A program made the position numbers and the translations under genes. Below, in pieces: positions 2,621-11,521 of a stretch of 11,521 nucleotides of DNA. The stretch lies in the IMG/VR virus record IMGVR_UViG_2657245124_000008. The stretch is one strand, 5' to 3'. Under the pieces are notes generated by a model. That model did not search any database. It had not been told where the DNA came from and worked only from the letters and a program-made list of their open reading frames with translations. Each line of letters begins with the position of its first letter. Position 1 is the stretch's first letter. Source of the DNA: a virus. Lineage: Duplodnaviria > Heunggongvirae > Uroviricota > Caudoviricetes.

Positions 2621-2732
2621 AACTGAAGTTGCCCTGAAAATGAAATTTTTTTGCACAACCGCAGAACTTTTCCGCAGGGCATCAGTCTTAATTAGTGCCA
2701 CTGCTTTTCTTTGATGTCCCCATTTTGTGGAG

Positions 2733-2776
2733 CCCATCAACCCCGCCATTTCGGTTCAAGGTTGATGGGTTTTTTG
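2733..2776 (+). terminator. rho-independent terminator-like hairpin in the ybjL/prophage junction region
   Basis: Stem CCCATCAACC (2733-2742) pairs with GGTTGATGGG (2760-2769) across a 17-nt loop, followed by TTTTTTG. The T-run is on the plus strand, so this most likely terminates ybjL. The same hairpin read on the minus strand may also terminate ogr. Confidence 0.5.
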
Positions 2777-2855
2777 TTGCCTGAAATTTATGTCGTTTAA
2801 AATCATGACGTTAGAAGCACTGTTTTTTAACGATGGCGACAAAATGGCGGCAGCG

Positions 2856-3074
2856 TCAAAGAGAGAGCGCCACCTGTCCTGATTTCATTGGATGCGGCTG
2901 AACCGGATTTGACTCTTTTGGCGTTGCAATCGAACGAACAAAAGTTTCATGGGTTACAAAAGTATGGCTGCAGTTAATATTCTGGCACTGGTTGTAACGC
3001 TCTTTGGTCAATGAAGATACCTGAAAACTGCTGCGAGTATGGGCGGCACTTCCACACAGTGGGCAAATCATCAT
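2856..3074 (-). CDS. ogr: Ogr/Delta-family zinc-finger late transcription activator (about 73 aa)
   Basis: Product MMICPLCGSAAHTRSS...KERYNQCQNINCSHTF... has the Cys-x2-Cys ... Cys-x4-Cys arrangement and KERY(H/N)QCQN(V/I)NC core of P2 Ogr. The six-frame ORF extends to 3167 only because no in-frame stop intervenes. The internal ATG at 3074 aligns with the P2 Ogr N-terminus and is preceded by GGGAGA. Confidence 0.75.
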   Translation of the reverse strand: MMICPLCGSAAHTRSSFQVSSLTKERYNQCQNINCSHTFVTHETFVRSIATPKESNPVQPHPMKSGQVALSL

Positions 3075-3163: not shown

Positions 3164-4264
3164 TCATTCCATTTCGAAATCATCAATCTTCACTTCGAGT
3201 TCAATACTGGTTGTAAAACCGTTATCCGGGCTGACGGTATGTGTCAGAGTCGTAATGGTCCATTCCGCATCATCTATCGGCTGTTTAAAACCACTGACCT
3301 TCACAGGCATTTCCGTGTAGAGATCTGCCCGCCCTTCTGCCAGTTGTAGCGAAAATGACGCAACGCCGCGTTGCAGGCGTTCCCACTGCATTTTCGCCGC
3401 TCGTTCGGCGTTGCTCCGGTTGGCATAAGTGCGATTAAGTACCAGCACGTTTTCATCCGTACCCACCAGGTAATCGCCCTGCTTCGCTTCTGGCTCTTTC
3501 TTCTGCTTCTTAGTTCTGCGCTTACGCTTCACCGTGGTGCTTTCTTTCTTCGCAGGTTCGCGGGTATGCAACCAGCTGGCAATTACGCCCGTGTAGGCTC
3601 CGCGATCTGCCAGGGTAAATCGGTGACTGTCGCCGTCCTTGCGTGTGATAGTGATCACTGGCAGAGGTTTACCAGTGACGCTTTTGCCCTGCCCCTGCCG
3701 GATGAATAACAGATTGCCATTTTTCACCGACGCGATGGCACCGTATTGTCGCGCCAGCCGCATCAGAAAACTGCCGTCACTCTCATTAGTCTGGTCTATA
3801 TGCTCCACGGGCTTATCCGACAGGTCTTTACCCAGTGCCATCTTCAGCTTGTGCCGCGCGGCTATTTCCTTCACCACTTCCCCGACGGTGGTCTTATGCC
3901 ACGATTTTTCACGGCGGGTATTCAGCGTTTCCCGAAAATCAGCACTTCGCGCCCGGATAGTCAGGCGGTCCGGTGCGCCAGTGTGTTCAATCTCGTCCAC
4001 TGTGAATGCCCCTTTCGGGAAAAGCAGCTGCCCCTTCCAGCCCAGCGCCAGCGTAATGACCGCACCACGGCGCGGCAGCACGATTTTTCCGTCAGCGTCA
4101 TCCAACTCCAGATCAAGCTGGTCCGCTTCAAAGCCCCGGTTATCCGTCAGCGTCAAACTCATCAGGCGGTTATCCAGCACTGTGGTGATATCCCTGCCCT
4201 CAATACTGATGCTGAATGCGGGAGTTTTGTTGCCTTTGTTAAGCAGTTCTGAGCTGAAATTCAC
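3164..4264 (-). CDS. D: P2 gpD-like tail protein (366 aa)
   Basis: 366-aa product with recognisable similarity to P2 gpD, sitting immediately after U and before ogr as in P2. The start is GTG at 4264, overlapping the U stop (GTGA). Confidence 0.85.
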   Translation of the reverse strand: MNFSSELLNKGNKTPAFSISIEGRDITTVLDNRLMSLTLTDNRGFEADQLDLELDDADGKIVLPRRGAVITLALGWKGQLLFPKGAFTVDEIEHTGAPDRLTIRARSADFRETLNTRREKSWHKTTVGEVVKEIAARHKLKMALGKDLSDKPVEHIDQTNESDGSFLMRLARQYGAIASVKNGNLLFIRQGQGKSVTGKPLPVITITRKDGDSHRFTLADRGAYTGVIASWLHTREPAKKESTTVKRKRRTKKQKKEPEAKQGDYLVGTDENVLVLNRTYANRSNAERAAKMQWERLQRGVASFSLQLAEGRADLYTEMPVKVSGFKQPIDDAEWTITTLTHTVSPDNGFTTSIELEVKIDDFEME

Positions 4265-4746
4265 GACAGCAGCCCTCCCACCGTTTTACTGATATCGCTT
4301 AAGGCAGACGTTGCCGTGTCCTGCAGATTATTCAGTTGCGCACTGAGATCACCGAACATATCGGACAGGGATTCATCCACTCGTTTGAGCGACAGGGTGA
4401 ACTCAATCCGGCGCGGCATACCGTCGCGGAAAAACTCCGTTTTAGTCTGATTCAGTCCCTCAATCACATACATGCCGTAAATCGTGCCGCTGCCTTCAAT
4501 CAGGGGCCATGCTTTCCCCTGTTCTGCCATCTGCTCCAGTGCCAGCAACGACAGCCTGCCGCCTGTTATCTCCGGCATAAGAACACCGGAAAGCGTCAGC
4601 ATGTCGTTTTCCGGTCCCAGAAACTGCGTGGACGGACGTCGGTTTACCCGACTGTTTGCCGCATGTCGCCAGCTGCGTTGATACTGCAGTTCCTGATACG
4701 GAACGGTGCGCAGCATAAACACGTACAATCCCAGCACCATCATCAT
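4261..4746 (-). CDS. U: P2 gpU-like tail protein (161 aa)
   Basis: 161-aa product, similar in size and sequence to P2 gpU (about 159 aa from memory). Its ATG overlaps the T stop (ATGA), indicating translational coupling. Confidence 0.85.
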   Translation of the reverse strand: MMMVLGLYVFMLRTVPYQELQYQRSWRHAANSRVNRRPSTQFLGPENDMLTLSGVLMPEITGGRLSLLALEQMAEQGKAWPLIEGSGTIYGMYVIEGLNQTKTEFFRDGMPRRIEFTLSLKRVDESLSDMFGDLSAQLNNLQDTATSALSDISKTVGGLLS

Positions 4747-7700
4747 GCGTCGTATCCCCCCTGATCGCTGTAGTTACTCCTGGCTTTTGCCTTCAGCCTG
4801 CGTTCACGTTCATCAAGCTGGCGTGCCACCTCCCGCGCAATATCCTGCGCACTTTGTCCTGGCTGCGTCTGAATGATGATCTGCGTCGGTGCCTCAATCC
4901 GTTGAACGAGCGGCACAGTGGCTGCGCGACTCACAATTGCTTCTCCACCTTTCGCGGGAAGTGCCAAAGGGTGCAACGGTGGAAGCTCTGCTGGCGCGGC
5001 AGCAACGCCCATCATTCCGGCAACAACGGCAGCCAGTGCAGCTGTATTTCTCCGGCTGGTCACATTTGCCGGGCCGTTAACAATTTCCGGCCCGTTTTCA
5101 CCGACGATGCCAAACTGCCCGCGCGGGATATACCCGCCGCTGTCATACATCCCCGCAAAGCCATATCCCCATGATGGAAAACCACCCGATGGCATCATCA
5201 CTTTGCCGTCTGCATTCACCGTCGCAGGTTGCTGACGCGTCACGCTTTCCGGTAGTTTTGCCTTTGCGGCCTCTTTACTGACAATGCCGAGTTTCTCCAG
5301 CAACCAGGAAACGCCGGATTTCAGGGAGTCCAGCGGATGCATGACCATATTCAGCCCTTCCGCCAGAGCCTCCCCGAATCGTCGCCCCATTGCCGCTGCA
5401 CTCTGCAGTTCGGCAGAGGTCGACTTAACGGGCGTCAGCAGGTCAGTAAACCAGCCCCACAGCGCCTGCACTTTGTCGCCAATCCACTGGAACACAGGCT
5501 TAAGTGGTTCGAATGCGGCACTGACGGGACCTGCCGCCGCTTTGAATCCCTCCACCACGCCACCGAGAAATGCGGTGATGGGTTGCCAGTATTTCCAGAC
5601 AACCAGCGCCACGCCTGCCAGTGCAGTAACCACTAGACCTATCGGACTGAGCAGAGCACCTAACAGACCAGATATGGCATACAGGGCAACGCGCAGCATC
5701 GCCAGTGGACCAGATGCCAGTACTCGCTGCACCGTACCTGCGGCGGTCAGTCCACCGCGCAGTACCGCCAGAGGATTCATAAACATCACAGCAACCGCAC
5801 GTAAACCGGATAATCCAGACCGCAAAAGTGCAACCGGCGCACCTGCAACAGTTTTCAGGACATTTCCCGTCAGTGATGCCGTACGGCGCAAAGACGACAA
5901 CGGCGCAGTAAGTAAACCCGCTGCGTTACCCGATAAAGCAAGCCCGTGTCGCAGCAGTGCCAGTGGTGCGCCAGCCAGCCAGGACAACGCGCTGCTGGTT
6001 CGTGTTACTGCTGCCGTAACGGAAGGTAACGTTTTGATGCCCAGCACAGAGAATCCCAGACGGATGACTGCCAGCGGCCCCAGCACTGCAGCCAGCGCCA
6101 CAGCCAAGGTGCCGAGGCCGACGGTAACCGCAGCCACAATAGCGGCTACTTTCATCAGTGTGCCCGTCAGTTCCGGGTTAGCTTCCACCCAGCGACGCAA
6201 CGCTCCCGTAACGCTTTTCACCGTGTACAGAATATCCATCAGCGGCTGGCGCAGCGTTTCGCCCAGGCTGCTGAAGGTATTCTGCGCTCCGGTTTTAACC
6301 AGCAACCACTGAGCAGAAAGTGAGTCCTTGTTGATGTCGGATTCTTTCTGCATGGAACCGAGCGCATCATTGCCCGCTGTCAGTTTTAGCTGGCGCTGTA
6401 GTTCCGGCAGGTTGTTTGCCAGTTTCGCCGCGTCATCGCCAAACTCTTTACCAAACAACATGGTCATGGCAGACAGACGCTTGTCCTGCGGCAGTGCGTT
6501 CACCTTCTCCAGCACACGCTGGATAGTTCCCATCGCATCCTTCGTCATCTGCTTTTCAATCACTTCAGGATTGAGTTTCAGCAGATTCATCCCTTCAAAG
6601 AAACTCTTGCTTTGCATGGTGGCAATGGACAATTCACGCACCATCGCGTTTGCTGCACTGGCTGCAACCTCCGGCGCAGCGCCCAGTGTCAGAAAGGTGG
6701 AACCCAGTGCCGCCGCTTTACGATAATCCAGACGGTCAGCCACACCGCCCAGACGTTGCATCACATCAATGATGTCCGCCCCTTTCGACATGGCGTTATC
6801 ATCCAGATAGTTCAGCGCATCGCCGAGCTGTTCAATATTGCGGGTAGGTATTTTGTAGAGCTGGGCGATTTTCCCCAGACTTTCTGACAGTTCATCCGCT
6901 GGCAGCTCAAAGGCTGTTGCCGCCTTTGCTGCCGTACTGGCGAAGGCCAGCAGGTCACGTTTCTGGTCTTCCCAGCTGTCGTCAGGGTCTGCGACGTTCA
7001 TGCGCGCACCACCTTCAACCAGTGCAGCGAAGTCCACCGCACCGTTTTCCATCGGCAACTGTTCGCTGGCAGCCTTGATGGCATCCTGCATTTCATAAAA
7101 ACGTGCAGTACGGTTTCCATTATCGTCACGCAGACCATTGACCTGCTTTGCCACACCTTTCATGGCATCTTCCATGCTGGTATAGCTTTTTACTGCCGCC
7201 ATCACTGGCGTCCCCATTGCCAGCCCTGCAGCCGTGGTAGTGGCTCCGGCTCCTGCAATACGATCGCGCACCTCCAGCGAACGGGCATAACTGGCACGCG
7301 CCGCATTCATCCTGCGCTGAGCTTCACCCAGTCGCTTCAGCCGCGCCTCCTGTTTCGACAATTCCTGGTTATAACGTGATGTTTCACGGGCTAAACGGGC
7401 AGTTGCTCCCGCATCATCTTTCGCAGAAATTCCCGCCCGGTACAGTTCTGCACGCACAAGCGCCGTTTGCTTCTGCAAATATTTTTGTTGTTCTTCCAGG
7501 CGTTGGACTGCCAGCGTTTGCCGACCTAAAGCCACAAGGTGCCGTTGTGATGGTTGTTCCATCGCCTCCAGCTCAGAGCTAAGCAAATTAGCCTTCTGTC
7601 TGGCATAGTTCAGCCTGTCGCCTAACTTCTTGTTATCGGCCTGCAGCTTGCGAAATTTTTCCAGGCTGTTACCCGCCTGATTGAGTTGCTTTAATGCGTC

Positions 7701-7820
7701 ACGGGAGTTTCTGATTGCACCAGCCAGCTCTTTCGAACTGGCCTGTGCAGCACGGAATGGGCGGGTGAGTTTGTCAACCGCATTAAGAATGACCTGCAGG
7801 CGCAGGTTGTTATCACTCAT
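4743..7820 (-). CDS. T: tail tape measure protein (gpT-like, 1025 aa)
   Basis: Long ORF with a coiled-coil-like, Q/R/K/E/A-rich N-terminal region, a central Ala/Gly/Leu-rich hydrophobic repeat block, and a position between E/E' and U. All are typical of tape measure proteins. Confidence 0.9.
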   Translation of the reverse strand: MSDNNLRLQVILNAVDKLTRPFRAAQASSKELAGAIRNSRDALKQLNQAGNSLEKFRKLQADNKKLGDRLNYARQKANLLSSELEAMEQPSQRHLVALGRQTLAVQRLEEQQKYLQKQTALVRAELYRAGISAKDDAGATARLARETSRYNQELSKQEARLKRLGEAQRRMNAARASYARSLEVRDRIAGAGATTTAAGLAMGTPVMAAVKSYTSMEDAMKGVAKQVNGLRDDNGNRTARFYEMQDAIKAASEQLPMENGAVDFAALVEGGARMNVADPDDSWEDQKRDLLAFASTAAKAATAFELPADELSESLGKIAQLYKIPTRNIEQLGDALNYLDDNAMSKGADIIDVMQRLGGVADRLDYRKAAALGSTFLTLGAAPEVAASAANAMVRELSIATMQSKSFFEGMNLLKLNPEVIEKQMTKDAMGTIQRVLEKVNALPQDKRLSAMTMLFGKEFGDDAAKLANNLPELQRQLKLTAGNDALGSMQKESDINKDSLSAQWLLVKTGAQNTFSSLGETLRQPLMDILYTVKSVTGALRRWVEANPELTGTLMKVAAIVAAVTVGLGTLAVALAAVLGPLAVIRLGFSVLGIKTLPSVTAAVTRTSSALSWLAGAPLALLRHGLALSGNAAGLLTAPLSSLRRTASLTGNVLKTVAGAPVALLRSGLSGLRAVAVMFMNPLAVLRGGLTAAGTVQRVLASGPLAMLRVALYAISGLLGALLSPIGLVVTALAGVALVVWKYWQPITAFLGGVVEGFKAAAGPVSAAFEPLKPVFQWIGDKVQALWGWFTDLLTPVKSTSAELQSAAAMGRRFGEALAEGLNMVMHPLDSLKSGVSWLLEKLGIVSKEAAKAKLPESVTRQQPATVNADGKVMMPSGGFPSWGYGFAGMYDSGGYIPRGQFGIVGENGPEIVNGPANVTSRRNTAALAAVVAGMMGVAAAPAELPPLHPLALPAKGGEAIVSRAATVPLVQRIEAPTQIIIQTQPGQSAQDIAREVARQLDERERRLKAKARSNYSDQGGYDA

Positions 7821-8249
7821 CGTTGGCCCCGCTTCTCTGAATCGCTTTATACCGCCATTCCAGCACTTCGGTCAGCGGCATAACGTCAGTAACGGATGGC
7901 GGCCAGTGAAAAATGGTGGCGATATCTGCCACCAGATCGTCAACCGTCAGGCTGTCGGTAAACCGGCAAGCACCGACTTCTTCAACAAAAAAGTGACAAC
8001 CTCAACCGACATGGCTGTGAGATCTGCCGGGTCCATCTCTGCGATTTCCTGTGCAGTCAGTGCCGGACTGGAGATGCGGGGGATCACGGTCATCATCGCG
8101 TTCACATCCATATCCATAATGGCCTGCAGGCGTGTGCCGCGCAGCGCACCAGACTGCGGTTTACGCAACACAATTTCGGTAATTTCTGTTTTACCGCGCA
8201 TGATGGGGGTATCCAGTTGAATGGTCTTTTCAGTCTGTTTATCGCTCAT
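7813..8249 (-). CDS. E+E': gpE+E' tail assembly chaperone made by programmed -1 frameshift (about 144 aa)
   Basis: Translating by hand from the slippery site in the -1 frame gives an open frame running to a TGA at 7813-7815 (…VEEVGACRFTDSLTVDDLVADIATIFHWPPSVTDVMPLTEVLEWRYKAIQRSGANDE*). It overlaps the T start codon at 7820. The total length is close to the 142 aa I recall for P2 E+E'. Confidence 0.65.
7947..8249 (-). CDS. E: tail assembly chaperone gpE (100 aa, zero-frame product)
   Basis: Small ORF between FII and T. Its 3' end contains the slippery heptamer T TTT TTG. The ATG at 8249 is preceded by an AGGAC Shine-Dalgarno-like sequence. Confidence 0.8.
   Translation of the reverse strand: MSDKQTEKTIQLDTPIMRGKTEITEIVLRKPQSGALRGTRLQAIMDMDVNAMMTVIPRISSPALTAQEIAEMDPADLTAMSVEVVTFLLKKSVLAGLPTA
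7986..7992 (-). other. -1 programmed ribosomal frameshift slippery heptamer TTTTTTG
   Basis: The minus strand reads GTC ACT TTT TTG TTG AAG (V T F L L K) in the E frame. The heptamer T TTT TTG matches the P2 E/E' and lambda G/GT-type slippery sequence. Confidence 0.7.
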
Positions 8250-8303
8250 TTTGTTGTCCTGTAAATTAGGTTCTGGCGCGGCATTCCGCGCCGTTCAGAT
8301 ACA

Positions 8304-8819
8304 TCAGAGGCCGAGGGCGTTGCGGTGCGCTTCCATCAGGTCCACACCGTCCACAATTTCCACCATGTTGATAAGGTCCACTTCATAGAGCACCTCACCA
8401 TTGATGGTCAGCTTCGCGTAGCTGTTGGTACTGGTAACTTTGGTGGTGTTGCTTTCGCCCGTCTTCCACTCGCCGGAATCCACTTCTTTGTGACGTCCAC
8501 GCACGACAAGCTCCACGGCCTGCACTTCCCCAGTATCGTCACGCTGGATAGAGCCGGTAAAGCGCAGCTGGATGCCATCCACCGTGGATTTGCCCATCTG
8601 CTTAAACAGCAGCAGTTCAGTACCACCAATGGAAAATTCTGTATCCAGTGCACTGTCATCCAGTCCCAGATCCACATCCACCGCCCCCGGCATACCGCCG
8701 CCGCGATACTTCTCATATTTGCGGGTGAATTTCGGCAGCGTCAGCGACTCAACGATCCCCTGCCAGTTGTTCCCGTCGTTAAACAAGTTCAGATGTTTTA
8801 ATTTGCGTGGTAAAGCCAT
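8304..8819 (-). CDS. FII: tail tube protein (gpFII-like, 171 aa)
   Basis: 171-aa product similar in size and sequence to P2 FII (about 172 aa from memory), directly downstream of the sheath gene. Confidence 0.88.
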   Translation of the reverse strand: MALPRKLKHLNLFNDGNNWQGIVESLTLPKFTRKYEKYRGGGMPGAVDVDLGLDDSALDTEFSIGGTELLLFKQMGKSTVDGIQLRFTGSIQRDDTGEVQAVELVVRGRHKEVDSGEWKTGESNTTKVTSTNSYAKLTINGEVLYEVDLINMVEIVDGVDLMEAHRNALGL

Positions 8820-8828
8820 GTTGTCCCC

Positions 8829-10001
8829 TTACGCGCTGACCTGGCTGGCGAAATTCACCAGGTACTGATCGGTGATGCGCTGGCGCAGCATCAGATTTTC
8901 AAGTGGCGGCACTGGCGTGTAGTCATAGTCGATGGTGAGTTTTCCGGCTTTCAGCGTGTCTTTGTCGTTCACCGACTCATCCAGCCAGCAATCACCACCA
9001 ATGAGATACCCCTGACTGACCAGGCTGCGCATTTTGGCGCGGATACCTTCGATAATGTCGCGAGCCAGCGACGGATTCAGCGGTTTGTCCACCGCCCACA
9101 TGTGCGCTTCTGCCATCGTGTCCGTCAGTACCTGCGCGGTTCGGGTGTAGTTTTCGAAGGCAAAGAGCGGATCATCGCTCAGACAGCGGGAACCCCAGAA
9201 GCGGAAACCGTCTTTGCGGATAAGCGTGGTAACGTCGTTCTGGTTAAGCAGACCTGCATCGGTTGCCGGGTCCTGCAGATCCCAGAACACATCAGCAGAA
9301 ATTCCGGTGACACCGTTCACGCCCACGTTGGACAGGCTTTTGTGCCATCCGGTCTGCTCATCAATTTTGGCGCGCAGACCGAGCGCACGAGCAGTGGCAT
9401 ATGCCGTTGCTTCGGCATTCAGCACCGTGTCCCAGCCCGTAAAGTCAGGCCAGATCAGCATCCCTTCGCGCTGGCTGAAGTTTTCACGGTAAGTGATCGC
9501 CTCCTGTACCGTCTTGCAGCCATACGCTGACAGGTAAGCAAACCCACGCAGGCTTTGCGCCACGCTCAGCAACTCAGTCGCAACGGCTTTGTTATCGTGG
9601 CCTGGCACGCCGAGAATGCGCGGTTTAACGCCGAGCTGTGACTGGGCAGATAACAGAGCTTTCATGCCTGTTTTTTTACCTTCAGCAGTCACTGCGCCGA
9701 TGATATTGGTCGTGGTTTCTTCTTCCGTTTCACCCTGCGGCACACGCACAACAACGGTCACGGGTTTTGCCTGGTCAGCGATGGCATCCAGCGAACGGGC
9801 CAGAGTACCGGACTCACCCGCTTTACCGCCGGCAGTCAGCACATCAGTGATCAGCACGGGTTTATTAAGAGGAAACATTTTTGCATCGGCATCATCGCCC
9901 GTGCAGACCATACCCACGATGGCGGTGCTCACCGTGGTAATGGATCGGGTGCCTTCGTTGACTTCAACAACGCGCACCCCGTGGTGGTAATCCTGAGCCA
10001 T
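8829..10001 (-). CDS. FI: contractile tail sheath protein (gpFI-like, 390 aa)
   Basis: 390-aa product whose N-terminus ([19 protein letters not shown]...) and C-terminal [13 protein letters not shown] region match P2 FI from memory. An AGGAGG Shine-Dalgarno sits 9 nt upstream of the ATG at 10001. Confidence 0.9.
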
Positions 10002-10077
10002 AGTGGCGAACCTCCTGATTGGATTAGGCTTCGCCCTATGTTGAAGTGATTGTGCCTGACAAACAGCTAAGCGCAGT

Positions 10078-10095
10078 TGTACCGTTATTCATACA
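10078..10095 (-). promoter_or_regulatory. candidate Ogr-dependent late promoter element (TGT-N12-ACA) upstream of FI
   Basis: TGT (10078-10080), a 12-nt spacer, then ACA (10093-10095). The dyad centre is about 85 nt upstream of the FI ATG, which fits an activator site near -55 with a roughly 30-nt leader. The -10 region is not confidently identified. Confidence 0.45.
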
Positions 10096-10143
10096 AAATG
10101 ACGGTATTTGTCTACTTGCAGGGATAATCAAAATAATGCTGAT

Positions 10144-10566
10144 TCAGGGGGATTCATTGCTCTTATTTGCCGGAAATTTTCTATACATGGTAGAAACGCC
10201 TACATCAAAAATCAGTGCAATACGCTGTCTTGATTCTCCGGCCTCGAGTAAACGCCCAATCTGTGCCCACTGTTCGGTGGTCAACTTAGGACGGCGTCCA
10301 CCTACTCTGCCTTTAGCACGAGCTGCAGCCAGCCCTGCCCTAGTACGTTCGACAATAAACTCTCGCTCCATTTCAGCCAGGGCACCCATCACATGAAAGA
10401 AGAAGCGCCCCATAGGCGTACTCGTATCGATGCTATCCGTCAGGCTCCGGAAGTTAACACCTTTCTCCCGCAGTTCCTCCACTAACCCAACAAGATGTCG
10501 CATGCTGCGACCGAGGCGGTCACGCTTTCAGACCACCAGCGTATCGCCTTCAGATATGCATCCTTG
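10144..10566 (-). pseudogene. Pin/Hin/Gin-family serine DNA invertase, N-terminally decayed
   Basis: The 119-aa ORF (10144-10503) matches the C-terminal two-thirds of Pin/Hin-type invertases (MRHLVGLVEELREKGVNFRSLTDSIDTSTPMGRFFFHVMGALAEMERE..., with the C-terminal helix-turn-helix). Upstream in the same frame, homology continues as ...EGDTLVV*KRDRLGRSM, with a TGA (10528-10530) where the conserved Trp of GDTLVVWKLDRLGRS sits. A TAG follows at 10567-10569 and no recognisable catalytic N-terminal domain is found in any frame. Confidence 0.8.
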
Positions 10567-10666
10567 CTAAACTTAGATCGCCGGTCACCAACTAAGCATG
10601 CAGTATGCGTTATGTTTTTTATTGCTCCCAGGGTAATGTGTCCACTAACTAAACAAGGAGATAGTG

Positions 10667-11218
10667 ATGCTGCATACTATGAATTTCACGGTGCCCGTAA
10701 ATCAGTCCACCGTTAACGCTTTAATTAGCAATTGCCTTGGAGCTATCAATCAGGGGGCGACTGAGTTAAACATTTACATTTCCAGTCCGGGCGGTGACCT
10801 CGTTGCAGGTTTTACTGCTTATCACTTTCTAAAGGCCCTACCAATCCCAGTAAAGACCCATAACCTTAGCAATGTTGAATCAGTCGCTAATATCATTTTT
10901 CTTGCAGGGTCTGAACGTAAGGCGAATCCTGGGAGTCGGTTCTTACTGCATCCTTTTCACTGGGGCTTGATGGGCCCAAGCGTGGATCACTCACGCGTCA
11001 GTGAGTGGGGCGCGTGTCTCAATAATGACCTGGAGCGTTTTGTCGATATTTTGGAGAGTCAGATTGAGCTCAGTAAGAGCCGCAATGAGTGGAAGGAGGT
11101 TATCTCCGCCGCCACCATAGCCAATGCCTCCACAGCTCTGGATTGGGGGATGGTTCACGAGGTTGCCGCCGCCACTTACCCGCAGGCACCCGGCACATAC
11201 TGGTGGATTAACTGTTAA
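10667..11218 (+). CDS. stand-alone ClpP-like (S14-type) serine peptidase, about 183 aa
   Basis: AAGGAG Shine-Dalgarno (10655-10660) lies 6 nt before the ATG at 10667 (the ORF track begins at an in-frame GTG at 10664). The product aligns by eye to the ClpP core: IYISSPGG versus ClpP YINSPGG, Ser72 in ESVAN versus ClpP GQAASMG, and His95 in LLHP versus ClpP MIHQP. It lacks the ClpP N-terminal axial segment and is oriented against the late operon. Confidence 0.7.
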   Translation: MLHTMNFTVPVNQSTVNALISNCLGAINQGATELNIYISSPGGDLVAGFTAYHFLKALPIPVKTHNLSNVESVANIIFLAGSERKANPGSRFLLHPFHWGLMGPSVDHSRVSEWGACLNNDLERFVDILESQIELSKSRNEWKEVISAATIANASTALDWGMVHEVAAATYPQAPGTYWWINC

Positions 11219-11377
11219 CATAATTACCTCTCAAATTTAAATTGGGCAGAGATGCCAGCATCCAGGCTCGCGCCTGGACGATTGTCTGATGATGAAAAGT
11301 GCAGTTTAATCTGTGGCTGGATTATCTGGATGCACTGGAGCTGGTTAATACCTCCAGTGCGCCAGATATTGAATGGC

Positions 11378-11521
11378 CTACTCCTCCGGCAGTTCAGGCC
11401 AGATGACATCCGGTGCGGTGCTGGTATCTGTTGCCGTCACAGCGTCGATATAATCCAGCACAACGTTAAGTCGGGTAGTTTCTTCTTGCGTCAGTTTGCG
11501 CCCGGCCTGCAGCTTTAACTG
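11378..11521 (-). CDS. tail fibre assembly protein (gpG/Tfa-like), C-terminal 47 codons; gene continues beyond the window
   Basis: The minus-strand frame entering from the window edge is open and reads ...RKLTQEETTRLNVVLDYIDAVTATDTSTAPDVIWPELPEE, ending at a TAG (11378-11380). This resembles the conserved C-terminus of tail-fibre-assembly proteins (…D.S.AP.I.WP..P), and the position matches gene G in P2 order. Confidence 0.55.
   Translation of the reverse strand, partial: QLKLQAGRKLTQEETTRLNVVLDYIDAVTATDTSTAPDVIWPELPEE

What the first reader, a model, noticed from the sequence alone, without database searches (positions are those of the whole stretch)
10002..11377. Cargo island between tail sheath gene FI and tail-fibre assembly gene G (the P2 Z/fun position)
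In P2 the late genes run ...H-G-(Z/fun)-FI-FII-E-T-U-D-ogr. Here the stretch between the G-like stop (11378) and the FI start (10001) holds a decayed invertase and an antisense peptidase gene rather than late-operon genes. It looks more AT-rich by eye than the flanking tail genes. This is the architecture of a swappable accessory hotspot, and the content differs from anything I recognise as a standard P2 gene.
Basis: partly seen in the sequence, partly recalled or inferred. Interest (0 to 1): 0.7.

Follow-up and report, generated by a model that had tools for sequence, protein, structure and literature searches.

The report
Dead tail-fibre switch carrying ClpP-like gene
Between the tail-sheath and tail-fibre genes of a P2-like E. 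coli prophage lies the wreck of a DNA-inversion switch for tail fibres, part of which was replaced by a small, well-conserved ClpP-type protease gene that travels among prophages as an accessory gene of unknown role.

Summary
Coordinates, the decayed invertase, the antisense peptidase gene and the lower GC (48.9% against 55.3%) are all real.

The interval is not one cargo island. It has four parts:
- 10002-10143: FI leader and probable late promoter, which is backbone.
- 10144-10557: a dead Gin/Pin-type invertase gene. It lacks its first 51 codons and carries a Trp-to-stop change.
- 10557-11306: a 750-bp foreign block holding a 183-aa ClpP-like gene.
- 11307-11406: a stub of an inverted tail-fibre-assembly gene.

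Intact relatives (phages 500465-1 and Cartapus) carry a Mu G-segment-like invertible tail-fibre cassette here. An invertase lies next to FI in about 670 of 5426 complete E. coli genomes. The foreign block replaced the invertase 5' end, one crossover site and the alternative fibre tip, so the fibre is frozen in one form.

The ClpP-like gene is under strong purifying selection (dN/dS 0.06-0.10). It belongs to an N-terminally truncated Ser-His family, one member of which has a solved structure (PpClpP1, PDB 9UXT). It recurs as a single antisense gene in late regions of P2-like, lambdoid, P22-like and Mu-like prophages. No defence model matches it and its biological role is unknown.

The Z/fun hotspot, including invertases and fibre swapping there, is already published. 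Interest is moderate.

The parts
8829..10001 (-). FI tail sheath gene (left border, backbone)
   Evidence: Pfam Phage_sheath_1, Phage_sheath_1C and Gp18_domIII_N. RefSeq names it 'phage tail sheath protein'.
10002..10143 (-). FI leader and probable Ogr-dependent late promoter PF, with a TGT-N12-ACA dyad at 10078-10095. This is backbone, not cargo.
   Evidence: About 90-91% identical to 500465-1 and Cartapus across this stretch. The dyad centre lies 85 nt upstream of the FI ATG; the annotated pF activator site of P2 lies 83 nt upstream. The motif alone is not significant: 5 found against 3.3 expected.
10144..10557 (-). Pseudogene of a Gin/Cin/Pin-family serine DNA invertase. It corresponds to codons 52-188 only and has a TGA at 10528-10530 in place of Trp.
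   Evidence: Pfam Resolvase positions 79-144 of 145 and HTH_7. PHROG 125 DNA invertase, 2.5e-52. Translations compared with the intact 188-aa invertase of 500465-1. Homology to intact invertase genes ends at 10556.
10557..11306 (+). Foreign 750-bp block. It replaces about 920 bp of the ancestral cassette: the invertase 5' end, the invertase-proximal crossover site, the alternative fibre tip and the 5' part of tfa'.
   Evidence: blastn against L003 and L004 finds homology only up to 10556 and from 11307 onward. The replaced stretch in L003 is 5729-6648. The core 10605-11254 is shared at 87.6% with an unrelated prophage end in E. coli 100416.
10667..11218 (+). ClpP1-like peptidase gene of 183 aa. 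It is N-terminally truncated, keeps Ser72 and His95, and has Ala149 at the Asp position. An AAGGAG ribosome-binding site lies at 10655-10660.
   Evidence: Pfam CLP_protease 48.8 bits. AF2 model pLDDT 91.5. Foldseek top hit 9UXT, TM 0.88, 41% identity. Family profile against 9UXT gives E 1.9e-58. Invariant residues. dN/dS 0.06-0.10.
11307..11406 (+). 3' stub of the inverted tail-fibre-assembly copy (tfa'). It overlaps the active tfa tail-to-tail by 29 nt, as in intact cassettes.
   Evidence: Homology to L003 6649-6851 and to L004. RefSeq annotates a pseudogene, 'tail fiber assembly protein, frameshifted, missing N-terminus', at 11270-11406. The intact geometry is shown.
11378..11521 (-). 3' end of the active tail-fibre-assembly gene (G-like). 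The gene runs out of the window to equivalent position 11788 and is an intact 136-aa ORF.
   Evidence: ORF at L001 15479-15889, with its ATG overlapping the H stop codon. Pfam Caudo_TAP 9.1e-22.

Best explanation
The interval is a fossil of a Mu G-segment-like invertible tail-fibre cassette, which in this sub-lineage of P2-like phages fills the Z/fun slot. The ancestral layout was: H constant part, crossover site, fibre tip, tfa, inverted tfa', inverted alternative tip, crossover site, invertase, PF promoter, FI.

One substitution put a 750-bp block carrying a ClpP-like gene in place of the invertase 5' end, the invertase-proximal crossover site, the alternative tip and most of tfa'. The switch is therefore dead and the fibre is locked in one form. 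The frozen cassette then spread between unrelated myovirus-type prophages by recombination in the shared fibre and invertase sequences.

The ClpP-like gene is the only live cargo. It is a self-contained single gene on the strand opposite to the late operons. By inference from its characterised homologue PpClpP1, its product forms ClpP-type heptameric rings with a wide, ungated pore. These rings cannot dock ClpX themselves but can stack on a ring of the host's own ClpP, which would change ClpXP/ClpAP proteolysis in the lysogen. I infer it is a lysogenic-conversion factor, most likely affecting competing phages or repressor/antirepressor stability.

Shown: the anatomy, the family membership, selection on the gene and its recurrent prophage slots. 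Inferred: oligomer state, partnership with host ClpP, expression in lysogens and the biological role.
For: Anatomy.
- Intact relatives have FI, invertase (567 nt), alternative tip (+), tfa' (+), tfa (-), H (-), with gix-like inverted repeats at both ends of the segment.
- Window homology to them stops at 10556 and resumes at 11307.
- Backbone identity of about 97% resumes exactly at the surviving crossover site inside H.
- The invertase lacks codons 1-51, which include the catalytic Ser region, and has an internal TGA.

Frequency.
- FI-invertase adjacency is found in 672 of 5426 genomes.
- The ClpP-like block is in 26 of 5426 genomes, with the same pseudo-invertase and tfa' stub in P2-like, dacD-associated and Mu-like-tail prophages.

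The gene.
- dN/dS is 0.06-0.10.
- The family has a constant length of about 180 aa, with an invariant GG oxyanion motif, Ser72 and His95.
- Family members occur as a single gene in late-gene regions: in P2/186-like Enterobacter prophages between gpU and tfa; in Klebsiella lambdoids between Rz1 and small terminase, antisense to both, the lambda bor slot by my recollection of lambda; and antisense inside Chromobacterium and Pantoea tail clusters.
- 105 IMG/VR contigs carry it.
- In the P22-like clade it is the second gene of an mnt-like operon in the immI region. In P22, mnt is a prophage-expressed gene (established P22 biology).

Homologue biochemistry (PMC12900304). PpClpP1 forms a homotetradecamer with a 42.7 A pore, has weak peptidase activity and does not bind ClpX. 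It forms a heterotetradecamer with canonical ClpP that does bind ClpX and is more active.
Against: - No promoter was detected upstream of the gene, and no LexA box lies near it.
- There are no expression data.
- No PADLOC model hits it.
- The window's clade lacks the Mnt partner found in the P22-like clade, so expression in lysogens is extrapolated from a clade only about 51% identical.
- PpClpP1 is only 41% identical and is a chromosomal Pseudomonas gene. A close relative of it lies beside LigD, not in a prophage.
- Hetero-oligomerisation with E. coli ClpP is untested.
- In E. coli 100416 the gene follows a dinI-like gene, which hints at SOS-linked rather than lysogenic expression.
Confidence: 0.6

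Rival explanations
1. The ClpP-like gene is a stand-alone anti-phage (superinfection exclusion or abortive infection) protease that acts on proteins of incoming phages on its own, without host ClpP. With its open pore it might, for example, degrade disordered early proteins or scaffold/capsid precursors.
For: It occupies the P2 fun slot (PMC9519451) and the mnt operon of P22-like phages. By my recollection of lambda and P22 gene order, its other slots match those of lambda bor and P22 sieA. Its best PHROG hit is the head-maturation protease family, 5.1e-27, so a prohead-protease-like specificity is conceivable. PpClpP1 alone has measurable peptidase activity (PMC12900304).
Against: No PADLOC hit. 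PpClpP1 alone did not degrade casein or GFP-ssrA (PMC12900304). There is no experimental phage-resistance phenotype for any family member in the searched literature.
Confidence: 0.2
2. The gene is a leftover fragment of a ClpP-type head-maturation protease from a degraded prophage, with no present function. On this reading the interval is simply junk between FI and tfa.
For: NCBIfam's best hit is Clp_rel_HeadMat and the best PHROG is head maturation protease. In phiv205-1 it is annotated 'head maturation protease'. In BR1220 a capsid-protein fragment lies nearby.
Against: dN/dS is 0.06-0.10 over dS up to more than 2. The length is uniform at about 180 aa, with conserved N- and C-termini, across Enterobacterales, Chromobacterium and Castellaniella. 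The NCBIfam score of 49.5 is far below the 120 cut-off. The gene is never next to portal or capsid genes and lies on the opposite strand to late genes in most loci. The host prophage has its own GPO scaffold gene. A family member is an active tetradecameric peptidase (PMC12900304).
Confidence: 0.04
3. The gene is the toxin or effector of a toxin-antitoxin-like or abortive-infection pair whose RHH (Mnt/Arc-like) partner has been lost here, leaving an inert or attenuated orphan.
For: In 42 of 80 viral loci an Arc/Mnt-type RHH gene overlaps its start by 1 nt. That is a type II TA-like layout, and Pfam also gives a FitA-like_RHH antitoxin hit.
Against: The partner has the Mnt C-terminal domain and sits divergently from arc-ant. 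It therefore looks like the phage's own immI repressor, not an antitoxin. Several clades, including the window's, are solo genes under strong purifying selection. PpClpP1 is expressed in E. coli without reported toxicity (PMC12900304).
Confidence: 0.06
4. The gene serves the phage's own lytic cycle or induction, for example by degrading a repressor or a host factor after SOS, and is not a lysogenic-conversion function.
For: It is adjacent to dinI/humD-type SOS genes in E. coli 100416 and near a DinI-like gene in CT29. ClpXP is known to control stability of several phage regulators (general knowledge, e.g. lambda O and the Mu repressor).
Against: It lies on the opposite strand to late operons in most loci surveyed. 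It is in the mnt operon in P22-like phages. No LexA box lies upstream in the window.
Confidence: 0.1

Closest known systems
P2 Z/fun accessory hotspot (between G and FI)
   Same: Same map position between the tail-fibre-assembly gene and FI. Contents vary between related prophages. Published as a second defence-enriched locus (PMC9519451) and as a mixed-purpose hotspot holding fibre/tfa swaps, DNA invertases and other cargo (bioRxiv 10.1101/2024.10.15.618418).
   Different: The content has no similarity to fun(Z). The live cargo is a ClpP-like peptidase not listed in PADLOC. Most of the 'island' is debris of the fibre switch, not inserted cargo.
Mu G segment / P1 C segment / e14 P region: Gin/Cin/Pin invertible tail-fibre switches
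   Same: Intact relatives have the same logic: a constant fibre part, two inverted crossover sites, two tip-plus-tfa sets arranged tail-to-tail, and an adjacent serine invertase. The crossover site resembles gix/hix-type sites (the AAACCNNGGT core is my recollection; the sequences are). Inverting segments in P2-like prophages of E. coli have been demonstrated (PMC4272514).
   Different: Here the invertase is truncated and carries a stop codon, one crossover site and the alternative tip are gone, and a protease gene sits in their place. The switch cannot operate.
PpClpP1 of Pseudomonas plecoglossicida (PDB 9UXT; PMC12900304)
   Same: Both are 183 aa. Identity is 41% and Foldseek TM-score 0.88, and the family profile matches 9UXT end to end (E 1.9e-58). 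Both lack the N-terminal axial-loop region, both keep Ser and His, and neither has Asp at the third triad position (Pro in PpClpP1, Ala149 here).
   Different: PpClpP1 is described as a chromosomal paralogue. A close relative lies beside LigD/DUF2795. The window's clade is prophage-borne. Oligomer state and pairing with E. coli ClpP are untested for the window protein.
Alternative ClpP isoforms that form mixed rings (P. aeruginosa ClpP2, Listeria ClpP1/2, Mycobacterium ClpP1P2)
   Same: The concept is the same: a second ClpP isoform that is weak or inactive alone and modulates the ClpXP core by hetero-oligomerisation (PMC13056064, PMC6889138; Foldseek hits to 4ryf and 4u0h).
   Different: Those are chromosomal housekeeping or regulatory paralogues with full N-termini, or are encoded in operons. 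None is reported as a mobile prophage gene (one search found no paper using 'phage-encoded ClpP' or 'prophage ClpP').
ClpP-related phage head-maturation proteases (NCBIfam NF045542, PHROG 94)
   Same: This is the best-scoring phage family by sequence.
   Different: The score is far below the curated cut-off (49.5 against 120). The gene is not in a head module, has no scaffold or capsid fusion, and the host phage has its own gpO-type scaffold.

Membership tests
P2 Z/fun hotspot cargo | Located between the tail-fibre-assembly gene (G) and the FI tail sheath gene of a P2-like phage | tested here: met
   FI is 8829-10001 and tfa stops at 11378. In P2, fun(Z) lies between G and FI.
P2 Z/fun hotspot cargo | Content varies between otherwise collinear relatives | tested here: met
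   The backbone is 95-97% identical to 500465-1 and Cartapus on both sides, but 10557-11306 is absent from them. This arrangement is seen in 1 of 5426 genomes.
P2 Z/fun hotspot cargo | Independent transcription unit expressed from the prophage | tested here: inconclusive
   The gene is on the opposite strand with a strong ribosome-binding site, but the scan found no sigma-70-like promoter or terminator. There are no expression data.
Gin/Hin/Cin/Pin serine DNA invertase | Complete N-terminal catalytic domain with the nucleophilic serine | tested here: not met
   The remnant starts at the equivalent of residue 52. Pfam Resolvase matches only positions 79-144 of 145.
Gin/Hin/Cin/Pin serine DNA invertase | C-terminal HTH_7 DNA-binding domain | tested here: met
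   HTH_7, 4.9e-15.
Gin/Hin/Cin/Pin serine DNA invertase | Uninterrupted reading frame | tested here: not met
   TGA at 10528-10530 where relatives have Trp.
Invertible tail-fibre segment (Mu G-like) | Two inverted crossover sites flanking the segment | tested here: not met
   Only one site remains, inside H outside the window (L001 16513-16538). No inverted-repeat partner is found. Intact relatives have both.
Invertible tail-fibre segment (Mu G-like) | Two alternative tip-plus-tfa sets arranged tail-to-tail | tested here: not met
   Only a stub of about 100 bp of tfa' remains, and there is no alternative tip.
ClpP family (Pfam PF00574, MEROPS S14) | Profile match above the curated threshold, and the ClpP fold | tested here: met
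   48.8 bits against a cut-off of 20.2. AF2 pLDDT 91.5. More than 1000 ClpP chains hit by Foldseek, TM-score about 0.83.
ClpP family (Pfam PF00574, MEROPS S14) | Ser-His-Asp catalytic triad | tested here: not met
   Ser72 and His95 are invariant, but the Asp position is Ala149 and varies across the family.
ClpP family (Pfam PF00574, MEROPS S14) | N-terminal axial loops that gate the pore and engage ClpX/ClpA | tested here: not met
   The protein begins at about profile position 20. The alignment with E. coli ClpP shows the N-terminal region is missing.
Canonical ClpP equivalogs (NCBIfam TIGR00493 and PRK models) | Score at or above the curated equivalog cut-off | tested here: not met
   27.7 bits against 308.6 for TIGR00493. 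All ClpP models score far below their cut-offs.
PpClpP1-like truncated ClpP subfamily | Full-length similarity to PpClpP1, about 183 aa, truncated N-terminus, Ser-His with a non-acidic third residue | tested here: met
   PMC12900304.
PpClpP1-like truncated ClpP subfamily | Homotetradecamer, and heterotetradecamer with the host's canonical ClpP | not testable with these tools
   Only single-chain prediction is available. The property is shown for PpClpP1 only (PMC12900304).
ClpP-related phage head-maturation protease | Curated model score, and location in the head-morphogenesis module | tested here: not met
   49.5 bits against a cut-off of 120. The gene lies between tail genes, on the opposite strand to them in most loci.
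Known anti-phage defence systems (PADLOC-DB v2.0.0) | Match to any defence-protein model | tested here: not met
   0 families for the ClpP-like protein and for the invertase remnant.
Type II toxin-antitoxin pair (RHH antitoxin plus toxin) | Adjacent upstream RHH partner gene | tested here: not met
   No Arc/Mnt-like partner in the window or its clade by tblastn. Only 107 bp separates the invertase remnant from the ORF.

The most novel reading that the evidence does not exclude
Prophages of several unrelated types carry a truncated, open-pore ClpP subunit as a single-gene lysogenic-conversion factor. On this reading it co-assembles with the host's ClpP ring and reprograms ClpXP/ClpAP proteolysis to exclude competing phages or to control repressor/antirepressor turnover. 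That would be a new mechanistic class of prophage accessory function: hijacking the host protease core by supplying an alternative ring. It sits in exclusion-gene slots such as the P2 fun locus and the P22-like mnt operon.
Probability: 0.25. Interest if true: 0.7.

Novelty: new member of a known kind. Interest (0 to 1): 0.4.

Why it matters
The locus shows how a known phage hotspot evolves. A host-range switch (the invertible tail fibre) was sacrificed for an accessory gene. The resulting frozen cassette then moved between unrelated prophages, using the fibre and invertase sequences as handles for recombination.

The cargo is worth a test. It is a conserved, strongly selected ClpP paralogue found in at least 105 viral contigs. 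It recurs in accessory-gene slots of several temperate-phage types, yet it is absent from defence catalogues and from the phage literature I could search. The 2026 biochemistry of its homologue PpClpP1 gives a concrete, testable mechanism: mixed rings with host ClpP.

If that mechanism holds in E. coli, it links prophage carriage to altered regulated proteolysis. As it stands, the finding is a well-explained example of a known hotspot with one uncharacterised gene.

Tried and rejected
- PADLOC scan of both proteins: no hit.
- NCBIfam: only sub-threshold ClpP and head-protease hits.
- Rfam over the whole window: nothing in the interval, only RybB at 2700-2778.
- tRNA scan: none.
- Promoter and terminator scan of 9950-11521: no sigma-70-like site upstream of the ClpP-like gene and no convincing terminator after it.
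- Alignment of upstream regions from seven loci: only a weak shared A/T-rich element about 25-30 nt before the start codon, too weak to call a promoter.
- LexA-box search: none near the gene.
- TGT-N12-ACA as a statistical signal: not significant on its own, 5 found against 3.3 expected. It is kept only as positional evidence.
- Second crossover site or inverted repeats in the window's locus: none. In the IMG/VR relative L025, which has an intact invertase next to the ClpP-like gene, neither the pattern search nor the repeat search found a gix-like site, so whether that locus still inverts is unresolved.
- Mnt/Arc partner in the window's clade: absent.
- Literature searches for phage-borne ClpP as a defence or moron gene: nothing relevant.
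- Head-protease-fragment idea: rejected on selection, uniform length and context.
- Idea that the tfa (G-like) gene is truncated, as PGAP flags it: rejected, because an intact 136-aa ORF is coupled to the H stop codon.
Full report
**Where the window comes from.** The window is identical to E. coli strain 1297KP chromosome NZ_CM173856.1. Locus L001 holds it with flanks, and window coordinate = L001 coordinate minus 4101. From left to right it holds host genes and then a prophage:
- Host genes grxA, ybjM and ybjL, and the sRNA gene rybB (Rfam RF00110 at 2700-2778).
- The right arm of a P2-like prophage read backwards: ogr, D, U, T, E/E', FII and FI (Pfam hits; RefSeq annotation).

Beyond the window the prophage continues with H, I, J, W, V, S, R, the lysis genes, the head genes, terminase and portal. 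It looks largely complete.

**Checking the observation.** Every factual element of the finding holds.
- FI is 8829-10001 on the minus strand.
- The tail-fibre-assembly gene stops at 11378.
- Between them lie a 119-aa minus-strand ORF with the C-terminal part of a Resolvase domain plus HTH_7, and a 183/184-aa plus-strand ORF with Pfam CLP_protease (48.8 bits, cut-off 20.2).
- GC is 48.9% for 10002-11377 against 55.3% for the tail genes 3164-10001. No window of the same length inside the tail genes falls below 52.8%.
- In P2 itself, fun(Z) lies between G and FI, so the position is the Z/fun position.

**What the interval is made of.** Comparison with relatives resolves it into four pieces.

Phages 500465-1 (Wadgaonvirus) and Cartapus (Elveevirus) are 95-97% identical to the prophage on both sides. 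At this place they carry, in order:
- FI
- a 142-bp spacer
- an intact 188-aa DNA invertase on the FI strand
- an inverted alternative fibre tip
- an inverted tfa'
- tfa
- H

In 500465-1 the segment is bounded by 27-nt inverted repeats: TTTTCTTAAACGTTGGTTTGGGAGAAG next to the invertase, and CTTCTCCCAAACCAAGGTATGTGAGAA inside H. This is the architecture of the Mu G segment. Inverting segments in P2-like prophages of E. coli have been shown experimentally (PMC4272514).

In the window, homology to these phages runs from FI through the spacer and into the invertase gene, up to 10556. It resumes at 11307 inside the tfa' stub. The four pieces are therefore:
1. **10002-10143** is conserved backbone. 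It contains a perfect TGT-N12-ACA dyad at 10078-10095, centred 85 nt upstream of the FI ATG. P2 has its annotated pF activator-binding site 83 nt upstream. The motif alone is not statistically significant in the window (5 found, 3.3 expected), so this assignment rests on position and conservation.
2. **10144-10557** is an invertase pseudogene. It starts at the equivalent of residue 52, so the region containing the catalytic serine is missing. It also has TGA where relatives have Trp.
3. **10557-11306** is foreign DNA.
4. **11307-11406** is the 3' stub of tfa'. It still overlaps the active tfa tail-to-tail by 29 nt, exactly as in the intact cassettes.

The foreign 750 bp replace about 920 bp of the ancestral cassette: the invertase 5' end, the invertase-proximal crossover site, the alternative tip and the 5' part of tfa'. 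The other crossover site survives as an orphan inside H (ATCTCCCAAACCAAGGTATGCGAGAA, L001 16513-16538, outside the window). It is precisely where backbone identity to the relatives resumes. With a dead recombinase and only one site, the switch cannot work.

The active tfa is intact. It is a 136-aa ORF whose ATG overlaps the H stop codon, although PGAP flags it as N-terminally incomplete.

**How common each layer is.**
- A 957-nt probe spanning the FI 5' end, the spacer and the invertase remnant is covered at 80% or more in 672 of 5426 complete E. coli genomes. An invertase next to FI is thus a regular feature of a large sub-lineage, not exotic cargo.
- The ClpP-like block (10558-11270) is in 26 genomes, 25 of them at 99% identity or more.
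- Only the window's own genome has the block next to a P2-like FI.
- In the other genomes inspected, the same frozen cassette sits in different prophage backbones. The cassette is the same pseudo-invertase with the same internal stop, the ClpP-like gene, the tfa' stub, tfa and a glycine-rich fibre tip. One backbone lies near dacD, with DUF2612 and baseplate-J genes. Others have Mu-like tail modules, at dusA or elsewhere.
- Homology between the window and the dacD-associated copy runs from 10261 to equivalent position 12031.

The simplest reading is one ancestral substitution, followed by spread of the frozen cassette through recombination in the shared invertase and fibre sequences.

**The ClpP-like gene.** It starts at ATG 10667, preceded by AAGGAG at 10655-10660.

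Similarity searches give the following:
- The protein is a distant ClpP relative. All NCBIfam ClpP and head-protease models score far below their cut-offs.
- PADLOC has no match.
- The best PHROG is a head-maturation protease family.
- A search of 5.8 billion proteins finds a coherent family about 180 aa long in Escherichia, Enterobacter, Citrobacter, Klebsiella, Pantoea, Serratia, Rahnella, Chromobacterium and Castellaniella.
- A search of cluster representatives finds 615 clusters at E no greater than 1e-10.

Sequence features:
- The GG of the oxyanion region, Ser72 and His95 are invariant.
- The position of the catalytic Asp is Ala149 here and varies across the family.
- The N-terminal axial-loop region of canonical ClpP is absent.

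Nei-Gojobori dN/dS against copies 76-88% identical is 0.06-0.10, so the gene is under strong purifying selection.

The AlphaFold model is confident (pLDDT 91.5). Its best structural match is PDB 9UXT (41% identity, TM-score 0.88), which the family profile also matches end to end (E 1.9e-58). 9UXT is PpClpP1 of Pseudomonas plecoglossicida. The paper (PMC12900304) reports these properties:
- an N-terminal truncation and a Ser-His-Pro arrangement
- a homotetradecamer with a 42.7 A axial pore
- weak peptidase activity and no binding to ClpX
- a heterotetradecamer with the canonical ClpP that does bind ClpX and is more active

**Genomic contexts of the family.** In the loci looked at individually, the gene is a single insert inside prophage late-gene regions.
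- In Enterobacter P2/186-like prophages it lies between gpU and tfa.
- In IMG/VR P2-like contigs it lies next to tfa, once beside an intact invertase (L024-L026).
- In four different Klebsiella lambdoids it lies between Rz1 and small terminase, antisense to both. From my knowledge of lambda, that is where bor lies.
- In Chromobacterium and Pantoea it lies antisense inside tail clusters.
- In E. coli 100416 it lies at a prophage end, after dinI.

105 IMG/VR contigs encode a relative. In 42 of the 80 loci fetched, belonging to a clade about 51% identical to the window protein, an Arc-plus-Mnt-domain repressor gene overlaps its start by one base. In the P22-like phage phiv205-1 this pair sits divergently from arc and an ant-like gene, between the ejection-protein genes and the tailspike. 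That is the immI region. In P22, mnt is expressed in the prophage (established knowledge). This is the best available hint that the family is expressed in lysogens, but the window's clade has no such partner.

A member of the Pseudomonas branch lies in a non-phage chromosomal context beside LigD.

Only six of 50,697 deposited phage genomes carry a relative. No paper in the searchable library discusses a phage-borne ClpP paralogue.

**Mechanism.**

Shown:
- The fibre switch is dead.
- The ClpP-like gene is the only intact, selected element of the interval.
- It belongs to the PpClpP1-like truncated ClpP family.
- It behaves as a mobile single-gene moron.

Inferred:
- It forms ClpP-type rings.
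- It cannot engage ClpX by itself.
- It acts by stacking on a host ClpP ring and changing regulated proteolysis in the lysogen.
- Its role is exclusion of competing phages or control of regulator stability.

I rate the anatomical account at about 0.9 and the mixed-ring lysogenic-conversion account at about 0.3-0.4. The combined statement is given 0.6 because most of it is anatomy. Rivals are a stand-alone exclusion protease, a lytic- or SOS-phase function, an orphaned TA-like effector and a decayed head-protease fragment. The last is essentially excluded by selection, uniform length and context.

**Comparison with what is known, and novelty.** The Z/fun locus was named a second defence-enriched hotspot of P2-like phages by Vassallo et al. 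(PMC9519451). The iLund4u preprint (10.1101/2024.10.15.618418) describes fibre/tfa swapping, frequent DNA invertases and other cargo at this very locus. The hotspot interpretation is therefore correct but not new.

Two things are new here:
- The resolution of this instance as a fibre switch destroyed by acquisition of a moron.
- The recognition that the moron is a phage-borne clade of a recently characterised unusual ClpP family.

That makes it a new member of a known kind. Interest is moderate (0.4). The ClpP-like gene is a reasonable candidate for experimental testing, but nothing here shows a new mechanism.

Noticed in passing
window 2700-2778 (+): The RybB sRNA gene (Rfam RF00110, 105 bits) lies about 80 nt from the ogr end of the prophage (ogr 2856-3074). 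The P2-like prophage is therefore integrated right beside rybB, downstream of ybjL. The att core was not mapped.
   Followed up: no
L045-L092 (IMG/VR) and L099 4753-5537 (phage phiv205-1): In a clade about 51% identical to the window protein, the ClpP-like gene is the second gene of an mnt-like operon (Pfam Arc 4.9e-30 plus Repressor_Mnt 3.5e-12, 1-nt overlap). The operon is divergent from arc-ant in the immI region of P22-like phages. It is found in 42 of 80 viral loci.
   Followed up: partly
L002 9896-11468; L100 and L101 6597-8228: The identical frozen cassette (the same pseudo-invertase with internal stop, the ClpP-like gene, the tfa' stub and tfa) occurs in at least three unrelated prophage backbones and insertion sites in E. 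coli: near dacD, at dusA and elsewhere. This implies cassette transfer by recombination in fibre and invertase sequences.
   Followed up: partly
L001 16513-16538 (window-equivalent 12412-12437, outside the window): An orphan gix-like crossover site, ATCTCCCAAACCAAGGTATGCGAGAA, lies inside tail-fibre gene H. It is exactly where about 97% backbone identity to phages 500465-1 and Cartapus resumes.
   Followed up: yes
window 11378-11521 and L001 15479-15889: RefSeq/PGAP marks the tail-fibre-assembly gene as a pseudogene missing its N-terminus. An intact 136-aa ORF with its ATG overlapping the H stop codon (ATGA) and a full Caudo_TAP match is present.
   Followed up: yes
L001 28848-29622 (outside the window): An 'ATP-dependent nuclease' gene sits next to the portal gene. 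That is the other classical P2 hotspot (the old/tin position) of the same prophage. By name and position it could be OLD-like, but I did not scan it.
   Followed up: no
L017 6739-10301: A member of the Pseudomonas branch of the family (P0055, about 45% identical to the window protein) is chromosomal. It lies between a DUF2795 gene and LigD, not in a prophage. The family thus has both chromosomal and phage-borne clades.
   Followed up: partly
L025 3229-5021 (IMG/VR P2-like contig): Here an intact 189-aa invertase lies directly beside a ClpP-like gene (81% identity) and tfa/H. No gix-like sites or suitable inverted repeats were found. Whether this locus still inverts is unknown.
   Followed up: partly
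window 4743-7820 (-): The tape-measure gene T encodes 1025 aa here. In P2 it spans 2448 nt (L014 4851-7298, about 815 aa). The tail may therefore be longer than P2's.
   Followed up: no
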